64,000 nucleotides of DNA. Source: Candidatus Kuenenbacteria bacterium HGW-Kuenenbacteria-1 (GTDB lineage Bacteria > Patescibacteriota > Patescibacteriia > UBA2591 > PGYQ01). The stretch is taken from NCBI GenBank assembly GCA_002839745.1, contig PGYQ01000001.1:80775-144774 (forward strand), written 5' to 3'. Below, piece by piece: positions 10,793 to 53,493 of this stretch (position 1 is its first letter; every line of letters begins with the position of its first letter). Under the pieces are notes generated by a model. That model worked only from the letters and a program-made list of their open reading frames with translations, did not search any database and was not told the origin of the DNA. A program made the translations under genes and the position numbers.

Positions 10793-11962
10793 ATGTTTTA
10801 TTTTAATATTTCAAAATTACTCCCGCGTCTCTTAAAAAGAGAAGTGGCTGAATTATACATTACTGTTGCCATAAAAAGTTTCGCTCTTTCAATGATTTCT
10901 ATTTTTGAACCACTTTATTTTTATAAATTAGGTTTTACGATTCCACAAATTTTGCTTTTTTATTTAGCAACCTATATTTTATACTTTTTTATTGTGCCTT
11001 TGGGAGGCAAAATTATTAATCGTTTTGGGTTTGAACATTCAATCTTTTTTTCTGTTCCGTTTTGTATCCTATATTTTTTAACTCTTTATTTAATTTCGAT
11101 TTATTCTTTTTTTATTCTAATTGCCCCTATTTTTTTAATTATTTATAAAACATTATATTGGCCTAGTTATCATGCTAACTTAGCTAAATATGGCATTGAA
11201 AAAGAAAGAGGAAAAGAGGTAAGCGCATTAAATGTAATTGATTTATTATTTGGAGCGATTGGCCCTATTTTGGGAGGATTGATTATTACTTCTTTTGGAT
11301 TTAATATTTTATTTATTATTGTTGCTTGCATTCTTCTTGTTTCAGTTATTCCTCTTTTTACAACAAAAGAAAAATTTATTTCTAAAGAAATCTTTTCATA
11401 TAAAAAATGCTTCGAACGTTTATTTGCTTTAGGAAACAGAAAGGCAATGTGGAAATTTATGGGACTAGGCGAAGAAATGATTTATTTAATTATTTGGCCT
11501 ATTTTTATTTTTTTAATTATCAAAAATTATTCAGTTATTGGTGGTTTAATGACTTTATCTCTTTTAATTAGTGTTTTTGCTACATCTTATATTGGTTATT
11601 CTTTTGATAATGGTAATGGAAAAAAAATATTAAGAAAAAATTTAATTTTATATTTTATTTTATGGCTCATTCGAGGATTTATTAGTACGCCAGTAGGATT
11701 TTTTTTAATAGAACTCTTTAGTAAAATCACTAATGCTGGCATTCATATTCCTTTAATGGCACATACTTATAAAAAAGCCAATAAATATGGAACATTAAAA
11801 TATTCTATATTTTTTGAACAAGCATTAATTATTGGGAAAACATTCATCACTTTTATTGTCTTTTTATTATTTTTTATTTGGGGTGCGGGATTTTGGGTTT
11901 GGGTTGTTTGTTTTTTTATTGCTGGTTTATGTTCTTTATTGTATTATATTGATTCAAAATAA
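10793..11962 (+). CDS. polytopic integral membrane protein, possibly an MFS-type transporter
   Basis: 389 aa with about 10-12 hydrophobic helices. No catalytic motif recognised. Confidence 0.5.
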   Translation: MFYFNISKLLPRLLKREVAELYITVAIKSFALSMISIFEPLYFYKLGFTIPQILLFYLATYILYFFIVPLGGKIINRFGFEHSIFFSVPFCILYFLTLYLISIYSFFILIAPIFLIIYKTLYWPSYHANLAKYGIEKERGKEVSALNVIDLLFGAIGPILGGLIITSFGFNILFIIVACILLVSVIPLFTTKEKFISKEIFSYKKCFERLFALGNRKAMWKFMGLGEEMIYLIIWPIFIFLIIKNYSVIGGLMTLSLLISVFATSYIGYSFDNGNGKKILRKNLILYFILWLIRGFISTPVGFFLIELFSKITNAGIHIPLMAHTYKKANKYGTLKYSIFFEQALIIGKTFITFIVFLLFFIWGAGFWVWVVCFFIAGLCSLLYYIDSK

Positions 11963-11994
11963 AAAATAATATAGAATTAAATTCTATTTTTTTT

Positions 11995-12066
11995 CCGCCT
12001 ATAGCTCAATGGTAGAGCAGTAGCCTCTTAAGCTATTGGTTCCAGGTTCGAGTCCTGGTGGGCGGA
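11995..12066 (+). tRNA. tRNA-Lys (anticodon CTT)
   Basis: Acceptor CCGCCTA/TGGGCGG. D-arm GCTC-AATGGTA-GAGC. Anticodon stem GTAGC/GCTAT with loop ctCTTaa. T-arm CCAGG-TTCGAGT-CCTGG. Confidence 0.8.
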
Positions 12067-12197
12067 AAAAAAATAGAAAATTTTTACTTATTATTATTTA
12101 TTATTTTACAATTTTCTATAAATTTGGTATTATTAAAATAAGATTTAATTTTTATTTTTCGTAACTATATATTAGTTACGAGTTACTCTAAATTTTT

Positions 12198-17415: not shown

Positions 17416-17510
17416 AAATCAGTAATTAGTAATGGTTAAACAAATAATGTGAGTGAGGGTTTGCATCTACTTAATTTATTTTTTGGGTAAGTTGGAAAGT
17501 TTATTTTTTT

Positions 17511-17569
17511 GGGTAGGTTGGAGCCTCTGCTCCAACCAAAAAATGAGAGCAGAGGCTCTCATCTACCCC
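17511..17569 (+). repeat. REP-like 59-bp nested palindrome, copy 1
   Basis: GGGTAGGTTGGAGCCTCTGCTCCAACCAAAAAATGAGAGCAGAGGCTCTCATCTACCCC. An outer stem GGGTAG/CTACCC encloses two hairpins, GGTTGGAGC-CTCT-GCTCCAACC and TGAGAGC-AGAG-GCTCTCA. It is GC-rich in an AT-rich genome. A degenerate half-copy GGGTAAGTTGGA lies at 17487-17498. Confidence 0.7.
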
Positions 17570-17746: not shown

Positions 17747-18370
17747 ATGCCAGACACAATTTTATGTAGGGTCTCAAGAATTATAACTTTTAGAAATAAA
17801 AATAATAAAATGCAATTTAAAAATTTTCCTAAATTTCAAGAAGGAATTCATTTTATCACAACAAAAACATTTAGAAATTATCCATATTTTAAAGATGAAA
17901 AAAATTGTCTAATTTTATTAGAAGAATTGAATTTTTATAGAAAAAAATTAGATTTTAAGATTTTGGGTTATGTAATAATGTCAGATCATTTACATTTTTT
18001 AATTTGGTGGGACATAGAAAAATATCCAGAATTAACGATTTCAAAAATAATGCAAGGGATAAAAGGACATTCAGCTATAAAAATAAGAGATTATATAAAT
18101 ATAACGGGTAGGTTGGAGCCTCTGCTCCAACCAAAAGATGAGAGCAGAGGCTCTCATCTACCCCATAAAAAAGGTCTTAAATATAAAATTTGGCAATCTG
18201 GATTTTATGATTTTAATATTATTTCTGAAAGAAAATTTTTAGAAAAGTTAAATTATATTCACAACAATCCAACCAAGTTTGGTTTATGTAAAAATTTAGA
18301 AGATTATAAATGGTCAAGTTATCGACAATTTATAAATTTAGATAAAAATTTAATTTTAAAAATTGATTAG
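17747..18370 (+). CDS. REP-associated tyrosine transposase (RAYT) / IS200-IS605 TnpA-like Y1 HUH transposase carrying an in-frame copy of the REP-like palindrome
   Basis: HUH motif SDHLHFLIW. C-terminal IWQSGFYDFNIISERKFLEKLNYIHNNPTKFGL...YKWSSY matches the RAYT helix that carries the catalytic Tyr. The ORF is about 20 aa longer than typical RAYTs, and the extra segment TGRLEPLLQPKDESRGSHLP is encoded by REP copy 2. Confidence 0.7.
   Translation: MPDTILCRVSRIITFRNKNNKMQFKNFPKFQEGIHFITTKTFRNYPYFKDEKNCLILLEELNFYRKKLDFKILGYVIMSDHLHFLIWWDIEKYPELTISKIMQGIKGHSAIKIRDYINITGRLEPLLQPKDESRGSHLPHKKGLKYKIWQSGFYDFNIISERKFLEKLNYIHNNPTKFGLCKNLEDYKWSSYRQFINLDKNLILKID
18106..18164 (+). repeat. REP-like 59-bp nested palindrome, copy 2, embedded in frame in the RAYT ORF
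   Basis: 58 of 59 positions identical to copy 1. It translates as GRLEPLLQPKDESRGSHLP within the transposase. Confidence 0.7.
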
Positions 18371-48097: not shown

Positions 48098-49162
48098 TTA
48101 ACTAGCTTTAAATCCTCCGATTAAACTATAAATCGGTAAAATGATTGCCATTGCTACCGCAACAACACCCAACCATACAATTACCAGCAATATTGGCTCT
48201 AAAAGAACACTTAAATTTTTTGTTGTATTATCTGTTTTGGCTTCAAATGTCTGACCAATTTTTAATAACACAATAGAAAGTGTAGCTGATTGCTCCCCAA
48301 TAATTATCAGTTGCTGAATAGATGCGGGAATTAAACGATTAATATTTTTAAAAGAAACAAAACTTTTTTGAAATGAATTGCCTTCGGCAATTGAATCGCG
48401 TAAATGAATGTAAAAATTTTTATATTGCAAAATTTCTGTGGCGCTAATCAGCGAGTCCAGTGCTTGAATAATTGGTAAACCAGCAGAAAGTAATGTACCT
48501 AAAAGATAGCCAAAACGCGTTAATTCCACTTCTTTAATTAATTGTTTAACGCCGGGCAAAGAAAATAAAAAATATTGACCAATAACTTTTGTTTTAGAAA
48601 AAGAAAAAATAAAATAAAATAAAACACCAATGATTACAACTATCATTGGTATCGCATATTGTCCATAATGACCTAAAAAATCTCCAAAACTAATTAAAAT
48701 TTTAGTAATTAATGGTAGTTCTATTTTAAGTTGAGTAAATACTGATGTTAATTTTGGTAAAATAAACCAAGCAATACCGATTCCAATAATCACTGTCAAT
48801 GATAATACAAATATCGGATACATCATTGCCGAACTAAGTTTTGATTTTAATGCGCGATTTTTTTCTTGTTCATAAGAGACTATTTTTAAATTTTCAATTA
48901 GTTTTCCAGATTTCTCACCCAAACGAATCAACGAAATAGCGTAATCAGCAAATAAATTCGTTTTTTGAAGCGCTTTCCAAATTGGTGAACCAGATTCAAT
49001 ATCTGCGCGAATAAAAACTAAAATTTTTTTTATGCGAGATGAACGCAATTCTTTAGAAATAGAATCTATTGCACTTAAAATCGGCATACCCGAAGCAACT
49101 AATATGCTTAAATTTTCAACAAAAAAATCTCGTTCTTTATTGAGGAAAAAAGTTGATAGCAT
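48098..49162 (-). CDS. pilC: type IV pilus / type II secretion platform protein (GspF/PilC family)
   Basis: Two T2SSF-like repeats and three TM segments. 354 aa. Confidence 0.75.
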   Translation of the reverse strand: MLSTFFLNKERDFFVENLSILVASGMPILSAIDSISKELRSSRIKKILVFIRADIESGSPIWKALQKTNLFADYAISLIRLGEKSGKLIENLKIVSYEQEKNRALKSKLSSAMMYPIFVLSLTVIIGIGIAWFILPKLTSVFTQLKIELPLITKILISFGDFLGHYGQYAIPMIVVIIGVLFYFIFSFSKTKVIGQYFLFSLPGVKQLIKEVELTRFGYLLGTLLSAGLPIIQALDSLISATEILQYKNFYIHLRDSIAEGNSFQKSFVSFKNINRLIPASIQQLIIIGEQSATLSIVLLKIGQTFEAKTDNTTKNLSVLLEPILLVIVWLGVVAVAMAIILPIYSLIGGFKAS

Positions 49163-49334
49163 ATAAAAATGTAAAATGTAAATATCAAAAATAAATAATT
49201 TCTAAACTTTGGCAAAAATCTTAAAATTTATTGTCATCCCGACCGAGGCTTCCAAGCGGAGGAATCCCTTTTTTATTATTTAAATCCGCTAGCTAGTGGA
49301 GAAAAAGGAAAATTTTTCATTTTAATTTTACCTA

Positions 49335-50993
49335 TTAATTGTCGTGCGCTTCGCACGGCGGTTCTGCGACTCTTAATAATTCTTCAATTGTTGTAATGCC
49401 TGTTTTAACTTTTTCTATACCATCTTCAAAAAGCGATTGCGAACCTTGTTTACGCGCTAATTTCCATATTTCTTGCGTTGACGGCGATTTTAAAATAAGA
49501 TTTTGCATCTCTGAAGTAATTTGAATAAATTCAAAAATTGCGGTTCTACCTTTATATCCTGTATGATTACAAGTTTCACATCCTTTACCTTGATAAAGCG
49601 TAATAGATTCTTCAGAAAAAAAACGAGTTATAGATTTAAATTGCGAAATATTAAGTTCGCTAACTTTTTTTATTACACTGCAACGGCAATGATCACAAAT
49701 TTTTCTAACCAATCTTTGAGCAATCACTACATTTAATGTAGAAGCCAATAAAAATGGTTCAGCGCCCATATCTAAAATACGCGGAATAGCGGTTGCCGCA
49801 TCATTGGAATGAAAAGTAGAATACAATAAATGCCCAGTCAAAGCCGCATTAACTGAAATTTCTGCTGTTTCATTGTCTCTTATTTCGCCCACTAAAATAA
49901 TATCCGGATCTTGACGAACAATTGATCGCAAACCTTTAGAAAATGTTAAACTGGTTTGCGTATTAACTTGAATTTGATTTATGCCTTGAATTTTATATTC
50001 AATTGGATCTTCAATAGTTGTAATATTTACATCCGGATTATTTATTAATTTTATTAACGCATACAATGTTGTTGTTTTTCCACTACCTGTTGGTCCTACA
50101 ACAAGAATCATACCAAATGGTTTTTCGGTTGATGTTTTTAATAATTTTTGATGTGGCAAAGAAAGACCCAAATCACCTAAAGTAAATCCTTGCACATATG
50201 CCGCTAAAACACGCAATACTACTTTTTCTCCTTCAATTGTTGGCACAATTGAAACGCGCATATCCACTGCTGTGTTATTCCTTTCATATCGCAAAGAGCC
50301 ATCTTGAGCGGAAAAATGCTCATCAATCCGCAAACTGCTTTGAACTTTAATTCTGTTTAAAATATTTTCATAAAATTCTTTTGGAATACAACCTGCTTCT
50401 TGAAGCACGCCATCAATACGAAATCGAATAACAATTTTATTTTTTTGAGGTTCAAAATGAATATCAGACGCATTATAAACAAGTGCGTCTTCAAAAATTT
50501 CTTCCAATAATTTAGGAGCAACGCGGTCTTGTTTTTCAAAAATTTTAGAAAAACGTGTTTCAAGTGATTTTTGATAATGAACAAAACAAGAGTCAATATC
50601 TTCAGAAAGAGAATAAGTAATTTTAATTTTTTGTTTATCAAATAATAACTTCAATTCTAAAAGTAATTGAGGATTTTGTGGATTATCCGTGGCAATAATA
50701 ATTTCATTTTCTGTTTCAAAAAAAACAACCGCGCGAATCAATGTTGCAATTTTTTTAGGTATTTTTAATATCTGTTCTTTTGAGGGTAAATTTGAATTAA
50801 GATCCGAATAAGAAATATTAAATGACTCAGCAATCGCTTGTCCCAAAAGATCTTTTGTGATCAATCCTTCTAAAAAAAGATATTCAGTCATTAAAGTATG
50901 ATGCGTTTTAGCATACTCTTCAGCTTTTTGAATATCTTTCTTAGTAATATAATTTCCTTGCAAAAGAATTTGTTTTAATATTGTGTCATTCAT
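49335..50993 (-). CDS. pilB: type IV pilus assembly / type II secretion ATPase (GspE/PilB family)
   Basis: N-terminal GspE_N region. Walker A VGPTGSGKTTTLYA. Asp box and Walker B IILVGEIRD. His box. C-terminal tetracysteine CDHCRC...CETCNHTGYKGRTAIFE. Confidence 0.85.
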   Translation of the reverse strand: MNDTILKQILLQGNYITKKDIQKAEEYAKTHHTLMTEYLFLEGLITKDLLGQAIAESFNISYSDLNSNLPSKEQILKIPKKIATLIRAVVFFETENEIIIATDNPQNPQLLLELKLLFDKQKIKITYSLSEDIDSCFVHYQKSLETRFSKIFEKQDRVAPKLLEEIFEDALVYNASDIHFEPQKNKIVIRFRIDGVLQEAGCIPKEFYENILNRIKVQSSLRIDEHFSAQDGSLRYERNNTAVDMRVSIVPTIEGEKVVLRVLAAYVQGFTLGDLGLSLPHQKLLKTSTEKPFGMILVVGPTGSGKTTTLYALIKLINNPDVNITTIEDPIEYKIQGINQIQVNTQTSLTFSKGLRSIVRQDPDIILVGEIRDNETAEISVNAALTGHLLYSTFHSNDAATAIPRILDMGAEPFLLASTLNVVIAQRLVRKICDHCRCSVIKKVSELNISQFKSITRFFSEESITLYQGKGCETCNHTGYKGRTAIFEFIQITSEMQNLILKSPSTQEIWKLARKQGSQSLFEDGIEKVKTGITTIEELLRVAEPPCEAHDN

Positions 50994-51098
50994 AATAAAT
51001 GTTAGCTGTTAAGGGTTAATATTGGTATGAAACCAATGTACCCTAAATATCAATTTGGGAATTTTTATTAATTTTTAATTTTAAAAAAGATTAAATTT

Positions 51099-52295
51099 TT
51101 ATTTTATATCTCCTCCCCAAATATAACCCTTAAATTTAGGAACATTTTTTCTTCCGATCAAATAATCTTTTTTTATACCTGCTATTTTTGATAATCTTTC
51201 TAAATTGTTTTGATCAATTTTAGTTGGTGATTCTTTAATTTCTAATGCTATTTTTTTATTTAAAATAAAATCAATTTCATTTCCATCTTTTAAAGCATAA
51301 TAACGAACCTCTCCTTTATGACGAATTTGATTAAAAAATGCATTTTCAAATTTTGATCCACTACTATTTTCCGCTAAAATATTTACTAATCCATTATCGC
51401 AAAAATAAATTTTCTGAGCTTTTACTATTTCGCGATCTATACTATGAGTATGAACAGATATTCTATGAATTAAATAAGTTTTTTCAAAAAAATCTATATA
51501 TTCTTCAACTGTATGACGCGATAAACCGCTTAGGCTAGCCAGTTTATTATAATCAAGACGAGTACCAATTCTAGATGCCAACATTTTTATTAAATTATAA
51601 ATCTCTTTGTCTTTGCGAAAATCAGAAAGTGTTTTTATATCAATATTTACATAAGAGCTAATAATATCATTTAATATCTCTTTTTTAAGTTCATCTTTTT
51701 TTACTAATACTACTTCTGGAAATCCGCCAAAATTAATAAATTCTTCATAATAAAATCTTAATCTTTCATATTCAAATTCAGAAAACATTTTCTCAAAAAT
51801 ATTTTTTTCTTTATAATAAACTTCTTTAAAATTTAAAAACTCGCCAAAATCCAATGGAAATAATTCAAATACAATTTTTCTTCCTGCAAGTGATTGAGTA
51901 AAAAAATTTTTAAGATAATAAGAACTTGAACCAGTTACAAAAAATTTTATATTATAATGATCATAAAGATATTTTATAACACTTGTAATATTAGGTAGAA
52001 ATTGGATTTCATCAATAGCTAAATAAATTTTCTTTCGTATATTTATTCCTTTTCCTTCAAGATCAAGTAAAATATTATCATAATTTTCTTGATCAAAAAC
52101 ATTTCTATCTGATAATTTTTCTAAATCAAAATAGATCTTATTTTCGGACTTTATTTCAGAAAGAATTTGTTTTAAAATAGTGGTTTTTCCAACCCTTCTC
52201 ATTCCAGTAATAACAATTACTTGTTTTGCTTTAAAATATTTTTTAATGTTTTTATAAATTTTTCGCTGATATATCATATATTTATATATTACCAA
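51099..52295 (-). CDS. AAA-family ATPase, AAA_14 N-terminal plus DUF4143-like C-terminal
   Basis: Walker A VITGMRRVGKTT. Walker B IYLAIDEIQ. C-terminal FCDNGL...YALKDGNEIDFIL is typical of DUF4143 ATPases. Confidence 0.65.
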   Translation of the reverse strand: MVIYKYMIYQRKIYKNIKKYFKAKQVIVITGMRRVGKTTILKQILSEIKSENKIYFDLEKLSDRNVFDQENYDNILLDLEGKGINIRKKIYLAIDEIQFLPNITSVIKYLYDHYNIKFFVTGSSSYYLKNFFTQSLAGRKIVFELFPLDFGEFLNFKEVYYKEKNIFEKMFSEFEYERLRFYYEEFINFGGFPEVVLVKKDELKKEILNDIISSYVNIDIKTLSDFRKDKEIYNLIKMLASRIGTRLDYNKLASLSGLSRHTVEEYIDFFEKTYLIHRISVHTHSIDREIVKAQKIYFCDNGLVNILAENSSGSKFENAFFNQIRHKGEVRYYALKDGNEIDFILNKKIALEIKESPTKIDQNNLERLSKIAGIKKDYLIGRKNVPKFKGYIWGGDIK

Positions 52296-52458
52296 AGTAT
52301 AAGTACACTATAACTTTAGTAATACTATTTTGTCAATAGGTTTTTATTTAAGTGATTAAAATTGAACTCCTATCACTTTTATTTTATATGATATTTTCTT
52401 TTTTAATTTATTGCATTGGAAAGTAAATATTTATTCTCTTTCTGTCATCCCGACCCCC

Positions 52459-52621
52459 CACGGTTGGGATGTTCTAAAAAAAATATAAAATGTGTTATTA
52501 TTTATAAATAATTTTATTAAAAATTAATAAATTTATGGGGTAGATGAGAGCCTCTGCTCTCATCTTTTTTTTGGTTGGAGCAGAAGCTCCAACCTACCCA
52601 AATCTTTTGGTTAGAACATCC
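52459..52621. mobile_element. MITE-like element: a 163-bp unit bounded by 19-bp perfect terminal inverted repeats, carrying an inverted REP-like copy
   Basis: Left TIR CACGGTTGGGATGTTCTAA (52459-77). Right TIR TTAGAACATCCCAACCGTG (52603-21). The interior is AT-rich except for the REP-like palindrome at 52529-52591. Confidence 0.5.
52529..52591 (-). repeat. REP-like nested palindrome, copy 3, in reverse orientation and slightly diverged
   Basis: The reverse complement is GGGTAGGTTGGAGCTTCTGCTCCAACCAAAAAAAAGATGAGAGCAGAGGCTCTCATCTACCCC. Against copies 1 and 2 it has one substitution in the first hairpin and a longer A-tract. Confidence 0.65.
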
Positions 52622-52639
52622 CAACCGTGCCCTAGAGCC

Positions 52640-53002
52640 TTATTTTAATTTTTCTTTTACCCATTCAACAATTTCAGCGATGGGTTTGTCAGATTTAACA
52701 AAAAAAGCTATCGCGCCTAATTCTATTGCACGTTTTTCATCATCTAACTGACCCAAATTAGTCAATACAGCCACTGGTATTTTAATTTTTATTTCCTTTA
52801 ATTTTTCTAATACTTGAAATCCATCCATTTTTGGCATAATTAAATCAAGTAAAATAAAATCTACTGTTTCTTTTTCAAGAAACAAAATAGCCTCTTTTCC
52901 ATTTTGTGCATTAATTACATCAAAACCTTCAAACTTAAGTTTAAATTTTAATGCATTTGCGATTGATTTTTCATCTTCTATAATAAGAATTCTTTTTGGC
53001 AT
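52640..53002 (-). CDS. stand-alone response regulator receiver domain (CheY-like)
   Basis: ILIIEDE ... ILLDLIMPKMDG ... and a K near the C-terminus. 120 aa with no output domain. Confidence 0.8.
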   Translation of the reverse strand: MPKRILIIEDEKSIANALKFKLKFEGFDVINAQNGKEAILFLEKETVDFILLDLIMPKMDGFQVLEKLKEIKIKIPVAVLTNLGQLDDEKRAIELGAIAFFVKSDKPIAEIVEWVKEKLK

Positions 53003-53112: not shown

Positions 53113-53493
53113 TTATAATTCCAATTTTTCTTTTACTTTTTGAACAACATCGTTAATTTTCCAATCTGATTTTACAAGATAACTATGGAATCCAAATAAC
53201 ATTGCTTCAGCCACTTTTTCACTATCACTTAAATTTGTCAACATAATTACCTTTGCATTTTTTCCCCATTCACTTTCTGTTCTTAATTTTTTTAGCATTG
53301 TGATGCCATCCATTACAGGCATTACAATGTCTAATAAAATTAAATCGGGTTTTTCTTGCAAAGCAATTTCAAACCCTTGCTCGCCATTTTTTGCATCAAA
53401 TACTGTGAATTCTTCAGATTCTAGTTTTTTATGAAGAATACTTAATAATGCTATTTCATCTTCTACAATAAGAATTCTTTTTTTTGTATTCAT
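53113..53493 (-). CDS. stand-alone response regulator receiver domain (CheY-like), second copy
   Basis: ILIVEDE ... LILLDIVMPVMDG. 126 aa. Confidence 0.8.
   Translation of the reverse strand: MNTKKRILIVEDEIALLSILHKKLESEEFTVFDAKNGEQGFEIALQEKPDLILLDIVMPVMDGITMLKKLRTESEWGKNAKVIMLTNLSDSEKVAEAMLFGFHSYLVKSDWKINDVVQKVKEKLEL

What the first reader, a model, noticed from the sequence alone, without database searches (positions are those of the whole stretch)
52459..52621. MITE-like element with 19-bp perfect TIRs carrying the third, inverted REP-like palindrome
CACGGTTGGGATGTTCTAA (52459-52477) and its exact reverse complement (52603-52621) bracket about 125 bp of AT-rich DNA plus a 63-bp inverted, slightly diverged copy of the RAYT-associated palindrome. 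The element sits between the DUF4143 ATPase and the receiver genes. This would be a composite: a REP unit packaged inside, or hitchhiking on, a TIR-bounded miniature element. That could show how this palindrome family moves, by RAYT in trans or via the TIRs. A different mobility mechanism would be implied for each.
Basis: seen in the sequence. Interest (0 to 1): 0.55.

Follow-up and report, generated by a model that had tools for sequence, protein, structure and literature searches.

The report
REP hairpin nested in inverted repeat
A 171-bp stretch between two genes of an ultra-small groundwater bacterium is a real, perfect 19-bp inverted repeat enclosing a small mobile palindrome, but it looks like a one-off pile-up of related palindromic repeats rather than a new kind of jumping element.

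Summary
The inverted repeat is real. The right arm is mis-placed by 8 bases: arms are 52459-52477 and 52611-52629, so the unit is 171 bp, not 163. The arms extend to 28 nt at 25/28. The enclosed 63-bp palindrome (52537-52599) is a GTAG-tagged double hairpin. It is 90-93% identical to two copies at the window's only RAYT gene (17747-18370).

The MITE reading is not supported.
- The arm sequence occurs nowhere else in the window or 18 kb of extra flank.
- It has no exact match in three large collections, though none of them holds this genome.
- No DDE transposase or recombinase is nearby.
- The only possible target duplication is CCC.
- None of 42 related palindromes in other genomes is bracketed by an inverted repeat.

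The right arm plus 10 nt aligns significantly to the first half of the palindrome itself. The arms are therefore degenerate REP-derived copies that lack the GTAG tag.

Best reading: a nested, BIME-like REP cluster. It sits in the 3' untranslated region of the receiver genes, just outside a horizontally mobile ATPase cassette that split a receiver-pilB operon.

Ordinary in kind; modest interest.

More interesting side finds: the RAYT gene family carries its REP in frame, and an independent assembly breaks on both sides of the interior.

The parts
52459..52477 (+). Left arm of the inverted repeat, CACGGTTGGGATGTTCTAA. The imperfect extension runs to 52486.
52611..52629 (-). Right arm, the exact reverse complement of the left arm. 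The imperfect extension starts at 52602. Read on the minus strand with the next 10 nt, it is a degenerate copy of the REPIN first half: hairpin 1 with a 4-nt deletion, the A4 linker, then GAT.
   Evidence: Alignment GGTTGG-G---ATGTTCTAACCAAAAGAT versus GGTTGGAGCCTCTGCTCCAACCAAAAGAT, reached by 0 of 2000 shuffles.
52478..52536 (.). AT-rich spacer of 59 bp at 3% GC. It contains an imperfect AT palindrome at 52508-52536.
52537..52599 (-). REPIN copy C. On the minus strand it reads GGGTAG-hairpin 1 (52573-52594)-A8-hairpin 2 (52543-52564)-CTACCCC.
   Evidence: Covariance model R1 gives 69.5 bits, E = 1.7e-15.
52442..52471 (+). Alternative local hairpin GTC-ATCCCGACC-CCCCAC-GGTTGGGAT-G. It shares its 3' half with the left arm. 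Its head TGTCATCCCGACC recurs at 49232-49244.
   Evidence: Fold of -16.8 kcal/mol.
52640..53002 (-). Stand-alone receiver gene. Its stop codon lies 10 nt from the right arm, so the element is in its 3' untranslated region.
51061..52353 (-). DUF4143/AAA_14 ATPase single-gene cassette with its own promoter (TTGACA-18-TATAGT, 52336-52307). It is horizontally mobile among Patescibacteria. The inverted-repeat element lies about 105 nt outside its upstream boundary.
17747..18370 (+). The only RAYT (REP-associated tyrosine transposase) gene in the window, and the presumed mobiliser of the REPIN in trans. It carries REPIN copy B (18106-18163) in frame.
   Evidence: Pfam Y1_Tnp. NCBIfam NF047646 at 101.3 bits against a cut-off of 80. 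PDB 4ER8 TnpA-REP..
17511..17568 (+). REPIN copy A, about 180 bp upstream of the RAYT start. It is preceded at 17441-17471 by a decayed REPIN second half.
   Evidence: The decayed half is reached by 2 of 2000 shuffles.

Best explanation
The locus is a single-copy, nested cluster of REP-type hairpins. It is comparable to an E. coli BIME or a REPIN cluster, and it is not a TIR transposon.

INNER UNIT. The 63-bp unit is a REPIN: two GTAG-tagged hairpins in inverted orientation, closed by GGGTA/TACCC. It belongs to a family shared by Dehalococcoidia and Patescibacteria. It is most likely copied in trans by the genome's RAYT as single-stranded DNA, without TIRs or target duplication (inferred from the IS200/IS605-RAYT paradigm).

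OUTER ARMS. The 19-bp perfect (28-bp imperfect) arms are two inverted copies of one degenerate REP-derived sequence that has lost the GTAG tag. They are either an older variant REP doublet or a local inverted duplication kept perfect by palindrome correction. The younger REPIN now lies in the loop between them.

SETTING AND EFFECT. The cluster accumulated in the spacer created when a mobile ATPase cassette split a receiver-pilB operon. Its likely effect is passive. A very stable stem-loop at the 3' end of the receiver transcript would insulate the cassette promoter and stabilise the mRNA, as described for other REPs.

SHOWN: the anatomy, the family membership of the inner unit, the REP homology of the arms, single-copy status in the accessible data, and the position outside the cassette.
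INFERRED: mobilisation by the RAYT, the order of events, and the RNA-level effect.
For: - Covariance model R1, built from 27 units of 25 loci, finds exactly three copies in the window, all with E <= 1.7e-15.
- Hairpin 2 shows compensatory changes at 4 pairs, and no shuffle reaches the covariation score (0/500).
- The RAYT passes NCBIfam's REP_Tyr_transpos equivalog cut-off.
- The right arm plus 10 nt aligns to the REPIN first half, reached by 0 of 2000 shuffles. A second decayed REPIN half lies next to copy A, reached by 2 of 2000, so decayed relics beside intact copies recur.
- Both arms share the same 4-nt deletion and substitutions, so they are copies of each other.
- Arm-like sequence: a <=4-substitution search of the window plus 18 kb of flank finds only the two arms and one 4-mismatch partial match (34376), read as chance.
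- The arm has no exact hit in three collections.
- No DDE transposase or recombinase is in the window.
- Nested insertions into hairpin loops occur in this family: L130 hairpin 1, and hairpin-2 loops in L028, L038 and L056.
- Relative L128 has the receiver gene, 44 nt, then pilB. The cassette's DNA homology to five other contexts stops at 52353.
- Published precedent exists for TIR-like repeats built from degenerate GTAG REPs, and for decaying REP partners (PMC3733652; PMC3116915).
Against: - Only about 82 kb of this genome could be searched, and none of the three collections holds this genome. A variant REP or MITE family elsewhere in it cannot be excluded.
- 19/19 identity between the arms is unexpectedly clean for a relic in a genome that is visibly decaying GC-rich repeats. 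That hints at recent duplication, selection on pairing, or activity.
- The left arm also fits a different hairpin type (GTCATCCC...GGGAT), so the arms' origin is not unique.
- The Logan assembly of run SRR3546457 breaks on both sides, at 52488 and 52603. Known repeats do not predict this. It could mean the interior is polymorphic.
- No transcript or conservation data support the RNA-level role. No U-tract follows the stem on the sense strand.
Confidence: 0.55

Rival explanations
1. A genuine TIR-type MITE. It would be moved by a DDE transposase encoded elsewhere in the genome, and it either captured a REPIN or was hit by one.
For: - Perfect 19-bp terminal inverted repeats, a 171-bp non-coding body and an AT-rich interior.
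- CCC directly flanks both ends. CCC occurs at 0.4% of window positions.
- Most of the genome was not searchable.
Against: - Single copy in 82 kb.
- No exact 19-mer or 17-mer match in three large collections.
- No transposase in the window or flanks.
- The arms are homologous to the REPIN itself rather than to any IS end.
- The CCC on the right matches the REP-like ...CCC tail, and the CCC on the left belongs to a C-run of a local hairpin.
- No other unit of the family is IR-flanked.
Confidence: 0.08
2. The outer pair is itself an active REPIN of a second, variant REP family: two inverted REPs about 70 bp apart before the inner insertion. It would be multi-copy elsewhere in this genome and moved as a unit by the RAYT.
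For: - The architecture matches the REPIN definition of two inverted REPs plus a spacer forming a long hairpin (PMC3116915).
- The arms are REP-like and identical to each other.
- 133 minus 63 gives a 70-bp spacer.
Against: - The arms lack the GTAG tag that the family's intact units all carry.
- Each arm forms only a 6-bp hairpin with a G-T pair.
- No other copy in 82 kb.
- Only one RAYT was seen, and its internal and flanking REPs are of the canonical type.
Confidence: 0.15
3. A selected regulatory structure. It would be a terminator or insulator, or a switch between the local hairpin (52442-52471) and the long-range stem. It would control read-through from the receiver genes into the ATPase-pilB-pilC genes, with the arms kept perfect by selection.
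For: - Position 10 nt after the receiver stop and upstream of the cassette promoter.
- Extreme stability, z = -10.
- Two mutually exclusive pairings for GGTTGGGAT.
- The closest receiver homologue, L127, also has a GC-rich palindrome right after its stop. Similarity to the window sequence is weak, p about 0.02.
Against: - No U-tract after the stem on the sense strand. The only terminator-like hairpin with a T8 run is on the antisense strand.
- No relative is close enough to test covariation.
- L128 lacks any such structure.
- No Rfam match.
Confidence: 0.12
4. The interior is polymorphic in the natural population: excisable (a REPIN plus tail caught moving) or invertible between the arms.
For: - Two Logan contigs of run SRR3546457 stop at 52603 and 52488. 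They leave out almost exactly what lies between the 28-nt arms.
- A k=31 graph of the known sequence predicts branch points only at 52532-52568.
- The hypothetical empty allele would be a neat 57-nt hairpin of -39.8 kcal/mol.
Against: - Four long contigs from other assemblies carry the same gene arrangement. Only the JGI contig's element sequence was read, and it is identical to the window.
- Coverage loss at a 3%-GC spacer and strong hairpins is a simpler cause.
- An inversion would branch at the end of the 19-bp core, not 8-11 nt further in.
- No recombinase is nearby.
Confidence: 0.08

Closest known systems
REPIN-RAYT systems (Bertels & Rainey 2011, PMC3116915; NCBIfam NF047646 REP-associated tyrosine transposase)
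   Same: - The inner 63-bp unit is two inverted REP hairpins forming a larger hairpin.
- It is GTAG-tagged.
- It is present at the RAYT gene and dispersed.
- Only one RAYT gene was seen in the window.
- Decayed partners lie next to intact copies.
   Different: - The unit is very compact (56-62 bp, linker 0-8 nt) and closed by a GGGTA/TACCC third helix.
- The hosts are Patescibacteria and Dehalococcoidia rather than Proteobacteria.
- Copy number here is low: 3 in 64 kb, two of them at the RAYT.
- One copy sits in frame inside the RAYT gene.
BIMEs / REPIN clusters (mosaics of REP variants and other short motifs in intergenic DNA)
   Same: - Several REP-type modules of different ages and kinds are packed into one intergenic spacer at a gene's 3' end.
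- The modules are an intact REPIN, degenerate REP arms and a GTCATCCC-type hairpin.
   Different: - The modules are nested rather than tandem.
- Two degenerate modules form a perfect 19-bp long-range inverted repeat.
- This arrangement is a single instance, not a recurrent one.
TIR repeats built from degenerate GTAG REPs, and 'TIRtrons' (Di Nocera et al. 2013, PMC3733652)
   Same: Long inverted repeats derived partly from degenerate REP units, in genomes with RAYT-type transposases.
   Different: - Those TIRs flank the transposase gene or form repeat families of many copies.
- Here the inverted repeat flanks a REPIN, is 34 kb from the RAYT, and is single-copy in the data.
Bacterial MITEs (Correia/NEMIS, RUP, ERIC, Nezha)
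   Same: Size, non-coding body, terminal inverted repeats, location next to a gene end, and a strong RNA fold.
   Different: - No multi-copy family.
- No target-site duplication beyond CCC.
- No parent IS.
- The arms are homologous to the enclosed REP.

Membership tests
MITE (TIR-bounded non-autonomous transposon) | Terminal inverted repeats bounding a short non-coding body | tested here: met
   19-bp perfect arms bound a 171-bp unit. No convincing gene lies inside it; the only ORF touching it is a 58-aa TTG-start reading frame (52575-52751) that runs out into the receiver gene on the opposite strand.
MITE (TIR-bounded non-autonomous transposon) | Several copies per genome | tested here: not met
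   - One copy in the window plus 18 kb of flank, about 82 kb in all.
- No exact hit in the genome, metagenome or viral collections.
- The rest of this genome could not be searched.
MITE (TIR-bounded non-autonomous transposon) | Target-site duplication | tested here: inconclusive
   Only CCC is shared by the two flanks, and a fourth base differs. Both CCC runs can be explained by local REP-like sequence.
MITE (TIR-bounded non-autonomous transposon) | Parent IS or transposase with matching ends | tested here: not met
   No DDE transposase or recombinase among the 47 ORFs of the window or the flank genes. No other occurrence of the arm sequence.
REPIN (inner 63-bp unit) | Two REP hairpins in inverted orientation forming a larger hairpin | tested here: met
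   Hairpin 1, hairpin 2 and the GGGTA/TACCC closing helix. 97.6% of cells are paired over 27 units. Four pairs in hairpin 2 show compensatory change.
REPIN (inner 63-bp unit) | Cognate RAYT gene in the genome, with REPs at the gene | tested here: met
   ORF 17747-18370 scores 101.3 bits against NF047646, cut-off 80. One REPIN lies about 180 bp upstream and one inside the ORF. The classical pattern of REPs flanking both sides is not seen.
REPIN (inner 63-bp unit) | Conserved GTAG tetranucleotide at the REP foot | tested here: met
   GG-GTAG-GTTGG... and ...CAT-CTAC-CCC are invariant in all 27 aligned units. The feature is described in PMC3733652.
REPIN (inner 63-bp unit) | Repeated and dispersed within genomes | tested here: met
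   - Three copies in the window.
- More than 120 loci carry hairpin 1, with many per Dehalococcoidia MAG.
- Density in this genome is low.
REP (outer arms) | Sequence homology to the genome's REP | tested here: met
   Right arm plus 10 nt against the REPIN first half scores 28, against a shuffle mean of 13.4. No shuffle of 2000 reaches it.
REP (outer arms) | GTAG tag and a stable hairpin of its own | tested here: not met
   The arms read GGGCAC-GGTTGG... (CTAG/GCAC instead of GTAG). Each arm alone forms only GGTTGG/CTAACC, 6 bp with one G-T.
Intrinsic terminator of the receiver operon | GC-rich stem followed by a U-tract on the sense strand | tested here: not met
   On the minus (sense) strand the outer stem is followed by GGGGGGUCGGG. 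The only hairpin followed by a T8 run is on the + strand.
Invertible DNA switch (inverton) | Inverted repeats plus a nearby invertase, with both orientations present | not testable with these tools
   Inverted repeats are present. No recombinase is in the window. Orientation heterogeneity needs raw reads. The Logan contig breaks are only suggestive.

The most novel reading that the evidence does not exclude
The 114 bp between the imperfect arms (52489-52602: the REPIN plus its AT-rich tail) may be present in only part of the sampled population. That would be a REPIN-type element caught polymorphic after inserting into the loop of a REP-derived hairpin. It would give the first direct view of how this compact GTAG REPIN family chooses targets (hairpin loops) in Patescibacteria. 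The in-frame REPIN in the RAYT gene's hypervariable loop would then be another example of the same loop-targeting behaviour.
Probability: 0.1. Interest if true: 0.6.

Novelty: new member of a known kind. Interest (0 to 1): 0.3.

Why it matters
As it stands, the locus is one more example of REP-type repeats piling up in an intergenic spacer. It does not reveal a second mobility mechanism for the palindrome family.

Its value is mostly contextual, in three ways.
- It documents a RAYT/REPIN system in a Candidate Phyla Radiation genome whose REP hairpin is shared almost base for base with Dehalococcoidia.
- It shows that these units nest inside one another.
- It flags a site where read-level data could test for ongoing REPIN movement.

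Two side observations are more likely than the TIR composite itself to repay follow-up: the REP sequence carried in frame inside the RAYT gene across the family, and the ATPase cassette that moves between Patescibacteria.

Tried and rejected
- KNOWN RNAS. Rfam at gathering level over the whole window, and at E <= 10 over 52200-52800, gave only chance-level hits. ARAGORN found no tRNA or tmRNA here. A known RNA is rejected.
- COLLECTION SCANS. The 19-mer gave 0 hits in metagenome contigs and genome contigs, and a 17-mer gave 0 in viral contigs. These sets do not contain this genome, so they test spread across taxa, not copy number.
- REPIN PATTERNS. A REPIN pattern in viral contigs gave 0. A CPR-type REPIN pattern in metagenome contigs gave only 2 loci.
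- FUZZY ARM SEARCH. A search with <=4 substitutions across all fetched loci gave only chance-level hits: 34376 inside a helicase gene, and L019.
- EMPTY-SITE COMPARISON. The closest receiver homologues are only 60-69% identical. L123-126 are in a non-orthologous context. L127's contig ends in a palindrome 33 nt after the stop. L128 lacks the whole 1.6-kb region. No allele lacking only the 171-bp unit is available.
- PART OF THE ATPASE CASSETTE. Rejected. DNA homology to five other cassette contexts stops at 52353, and none carries the inverted repeat.
- LARGE-LOOP HAIRPIN 1 AS A COMMON STATE. Rejected. Only 1 true case (L130) against 128 four-nt loops.
- IR-FLANKING AS A FAMILY TRAIT. Rejected.
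- INTEGRON attC SITE. Considered from the GTTAGAA/TTCTAAC ends and rejected by inspection. The R'/R'' consensus is not met, and the cassette has its own promoter.
- RAYT GENES IN THE 120 HAIRPIN-1 LOCI. tblastn found none. DNA-level confirmation of the in-frame REP in homologues was therefore not possible.
- ARM-ENCODED PEPTIDES IN RAYT HOMOLOGUES. None found.

Full report
SOURCE AND SETTING

The window comes from Candidatus Kuenenbacteria bacterium HGW-Kuenenbacteria-1, a member of the Patescibacteria (CPR). The receiver protein, the RAYT and the ATPase are each 100% identical to proteins named from that MAG, and the same DNA is on JGI contig Ga0246100_100184. G+C is about 27%.

The finding lies in a 344-nt spacer on the minus-strand side of a co-directional gene row. 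The row reads two stand-alone receiver genes (53113-53493, 52640-53002), a DUF4143/AAA_14 ATPase (51099-52295), then T2SSE/pilB (49335-50993) and T2SSF/pilC (48098-49162).

CHECKING THE OBSERVATION

The 19-mer CACGGTTGGGATGTTCTAA is at 52459-52477. Its exact reverse complement is at 52611-52629.

These are the only two matches in the window even with three mismatches allowed, and 100 shuffles gave none. Complementarity continues inward to 28 nt at 25/28.

The interior has three parts:
- a 59-bp spacer of 3% GC;
- the 63-bp palindrome (52537-52599);
- 11 further bases.

It is the only long-range inverted repeat (more than 100 nt between the arms) with a perfect core of this length and real G+C content in the 64 kb. 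The region folds far better than shuffles: RNA of the sense strand gives -80.4 kcal/mol, z = -10.

THE INNER PALINDROME

It reads GGGTAG-GTTGGAGC-loop-GCTCCAAC-C, then a linker, then GATGAGAGC-loop-GCTCTCATC-TACCC. That is two hairpins closed by a third helix, with GTAG/CTAC at the feet.

Two further copies lie at 17511-17568 and 18106-18163, in the opposite orientation and 90-93% identical.

The adjacent ORF 17747-18370 is a REP-associated tyrosine transposase by three tests:
- Pfam Y1_Tnp;
- NCBIfam NF047646 at 101.3 bits against a cut-off of 80;
- closest solved structure E. coli TnpA-REP, 4ER8.

These were mostly Dehalococcoidia/Chloroflexota MAGs plus a Buchananbacteria CPR genome. Most show the same architecture.

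In an alignment of 27 units, hairpin 1 and the closing helix are invariant. That is partly by ascertainment, since the units were found by searching for hairpin 1. Hairpin 2 varies with compensatory changes at four pairs, and no shuffle reaches the covariation score (0/500).

A covariance model built from that alignment finds exactly the three known copies in the window and nothing else.

The inner unit is therefore a REPIN of a GTAG-tagged family (the class described in PMC3116915 and PMC3733652). Here it is present at low density.

IS THE COMPOSITE A MITE?

The tests go against it.
- The arm sequence, searched with up to 4 substitutions, is absent from the rest of the window and from about 18 kb of extra flank recovered from other assemblies. 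The one 4-mismatch hit, inside a helicase gene, is read as chance. No REPIN or GTCATCCCGACC copy lies in those flanks either.
- Exact scans of the genome, metagenome and viral collections found nothing. These collections do not contain this genome. They therefore exclude a widespread element, not a private family.
- None of the 47 ORFs of the window is a DDE transposase or a recombinase, nor are the flank genes.
- The only flanking direct repeat is CCC.
- In other genomes, 42 units of the same palindrome family have no flanking inverted repeat above 10 nt within 130 nt, exactly as at control positions.

WHAT THE ARMS ARE

Read on the minus strand, the right arm and the next 10 nt align to the first half of the REPIN:
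  GGTTGG-G---ATGTTCTAACCAAAAGAT
  GGTTGGAGCCTCTGCTCCAACCAAAAGAT
The matched part covers hairpin 1, the A4 linker and the first three bases of hairpin 2. The score is 28 against a shuffle mean of 13.4, and 0 of 2000 shuffles reach it.

The left arm is the same sequence with three GC-to-AT changes at its inner end. Both arms carry the same 4-nt deletion. They are therefore copies of each other, not independent decays.

They lack the GTAG tag (GGGCAC instead of GGGTAG). Each on its own forms only a 6-bp hairpin.

A comparable relic, a decayed REPIN second half, lies just upstream of copy A (17441-17471; 2 of 2000 shuffles).

The left arm can also pair locally with GTCATCCCGACC just upstream, giving a hairpin of -16.8 kcal/mol. 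The 13-mer head of that hairpin recurs at 49232, in the pilB-pilC spacer.

The locus is thus a mosaic of REP-type modules. Nesting is seen elsewhere in the family: a 61-nt insertion in the hairpin-1 loop in L130, and extra hairpins in the hairpin-2 loop in L028, L038 and L056. A split hairpin 1 is rare, however: 1 true case against 128 intact.

The literature already records TIR-like repeats assembled from degenerate GTAG REPs (PMC3733652). It also records decayed REP partners and REPIN clusters (PMC3116915).

CONTEXT

The ATPase has homologues at 83-93% amino-acid identity and 83-91% DNA identity in at least five unrelated gene neighbourhoods of other Patescibacteria. The neighbouring receiver's best homologue is only 69% identical.

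DNA homology runs only from 52353 to about 51061. That span is the promoter (TTGACA-18-TATAGT) plus the gene.

In two of the other contexts the cassette is flanked by long direct repeats of the upstream host gene's 3' end: 183 bp at 95% in L135, and 118 bp at 93% in L132.

A relative, L128, has the receiver gene followed after 44 nt by pilB, and pilB followed after 3 nt by pilC. In the window, then, the cassette and about 290 nt of extra DNA have been inserted into a receiver-pilB operon. The inverted-repeat element lies in that extra DNA, about 105 nt outside the cassette. None of the other cassette copies has it.

MOST LIKELY MECHANISM

- Inner REPIN: copied in trans by the RAYT as single-stranded DNA. 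This is inferred from the family paradigm; nothing here shows movement.
- Outer arms: an immobile, REP-derived inverted duplicate.
- Whole structure: a very stable stem-loop at the end of the receiver transcript. It plausibly blocks read-through and exonucleases, as described for REPs generally.

It is not a canonical intrinsic terminator. No U-tract follows the stem on the sense strand.

Confidence is 0.55. The rivals are an active variant REPIN (0.15), a selected regulatory hairpin (0.12), a true MITE (0.08) and a polymorphic or invertible interior (0.08).

UNEXPLAINED

The Logan assembly of run SRR3546457 does not span the element. One contig ends at 52603 and another starts at 52488. The missing piece is almost exactly the DNA between the 28-nt arms. 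A k=31 graph of the known sequence predicts branch points only at 52532-52568.

The cause could be coverage loss at hairpins and 3%-GC DNA, unseen repeats elsewhere in the genome, or a population polymorphism. Read mapping would decide.

VERDICT

The MITE interpretation is not supported. The locus is a new instance of a known kind of thing, a nested REP/REPIN cluster. Interest is modest (0.3).

Noticed in passing
window 18106-18163 within ORF 17747-18370; alignment A1 of 26 homologues; 115 homologues P0121-P0235: The RAYT gene carries a complete REPIN in frame, encoding GRLEPLLQPKDESRGSHLP. The insert sits in a loop between the IKGxSA and IWQxGFYDFN motifs that varies from a few to more than 90 aa across the family.

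38 of 115 homologues, from CPR and Dehalococcoidia alike, have LE..LQ there, which is the translation of TTGGAGCnnnnnnCTCCAA from hairpin 1. 23 have GSHLP-type peptides, which correspond to hairpin 2.

So the family either keeps its cognate REP inside the gene, or this loop is a REPIN landing site. I found no description of this in the RAYT papers checked.
   Followed up: partly
window 51061-52353 (-); L131, L132-134, L135-138, L139-144: The DUF4143/AAA_14 ATPase with its promoter is a 1.3-kb single-gene cassette. It recurs at 83-91% DNA identity in at least five unrelated neighbourhoods of other Patescibacteria.

In two of these it is flanked by long imperfect direct repeats of the upstream host gene's 3' end: 183 bp at 95% in L135, and 118 bp at 93% in L132.

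A conserved palindrome, TTACTAAAGT...ACTTTRGTAA, overlaps the -10 region. No integrase is linked to the cassette, except for an rve gene next to the L131 copy.
   Followed up: partly
window 52488 and 52603; L002 and L150 (Logan run SRR3546457): An independent assembly of the same organism breaks on both sides of the element's interior. It omits 52489-52602. Repeats in the known sequence predict breaks only at 52532-52568.
   Followed up: partly
window 49163-49334, with the GC-rich island at 49229-49272: The pilB-pilC spacer is 172 nt here, against 3 nt in relative L128. It holds a GC-rich island, TTGTCATCCCGACCGAGGCTTCCAAGCGGAGGAATCCC. Its 13-mer TGTCATCCCGACC also heads the hairpin on the left flank of the inverted repeat. 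This looks like a second small repeat family of the GTCATYCC... type, which is also seen next to REPINs in the Dehalococcoidia loci.
   Followed up: no
L003-L122, L129, L130 (genome and metagenome loci): The hairpin GGTTGGAGC-N4-GCTCCAACC, with GGGTA/TACCC closure, is shared essentially unchanged between Dehalococcoidia/Chloroflexota MAGs and CPR genomes. There are many copies per MAG. The RAYT homologues show the same two-phylum spread. This suggests an old or horizontally shared RAYT-REPIN system. Several units carry extra hairpins nested in their loops.
   Followed up: partly
L127 2199-2231: The closest receiver homologue (69% identical) is followed directly by a perfect 30-nt GC-rich palindrome, TTAGGGGTTAGGAAATTTCCTAACCCCTAA. 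The Logan contig ends there, about 15 nt past the palindrome's centre. Similarity to the window's right arm is weak, p about 0.02.
   Followed up: partly
window 11939-11999 and 12061-12121: A 61-nt imperfect inverted repeat (72% complementary) brackets tRNA-Lys (11994-12067).
   Followed up: no
window 51012-51046: An imperfect hairpin, GGGTTAATATTGGTATGAAACCAATGTACCC, lies between the ATPase stop and the pilB start. It has a GGGT...ACCC closure and a TTGG/CCAA core. It could be an AT-decayed REP relic or a native pilB leader structure.
   Followed up: no
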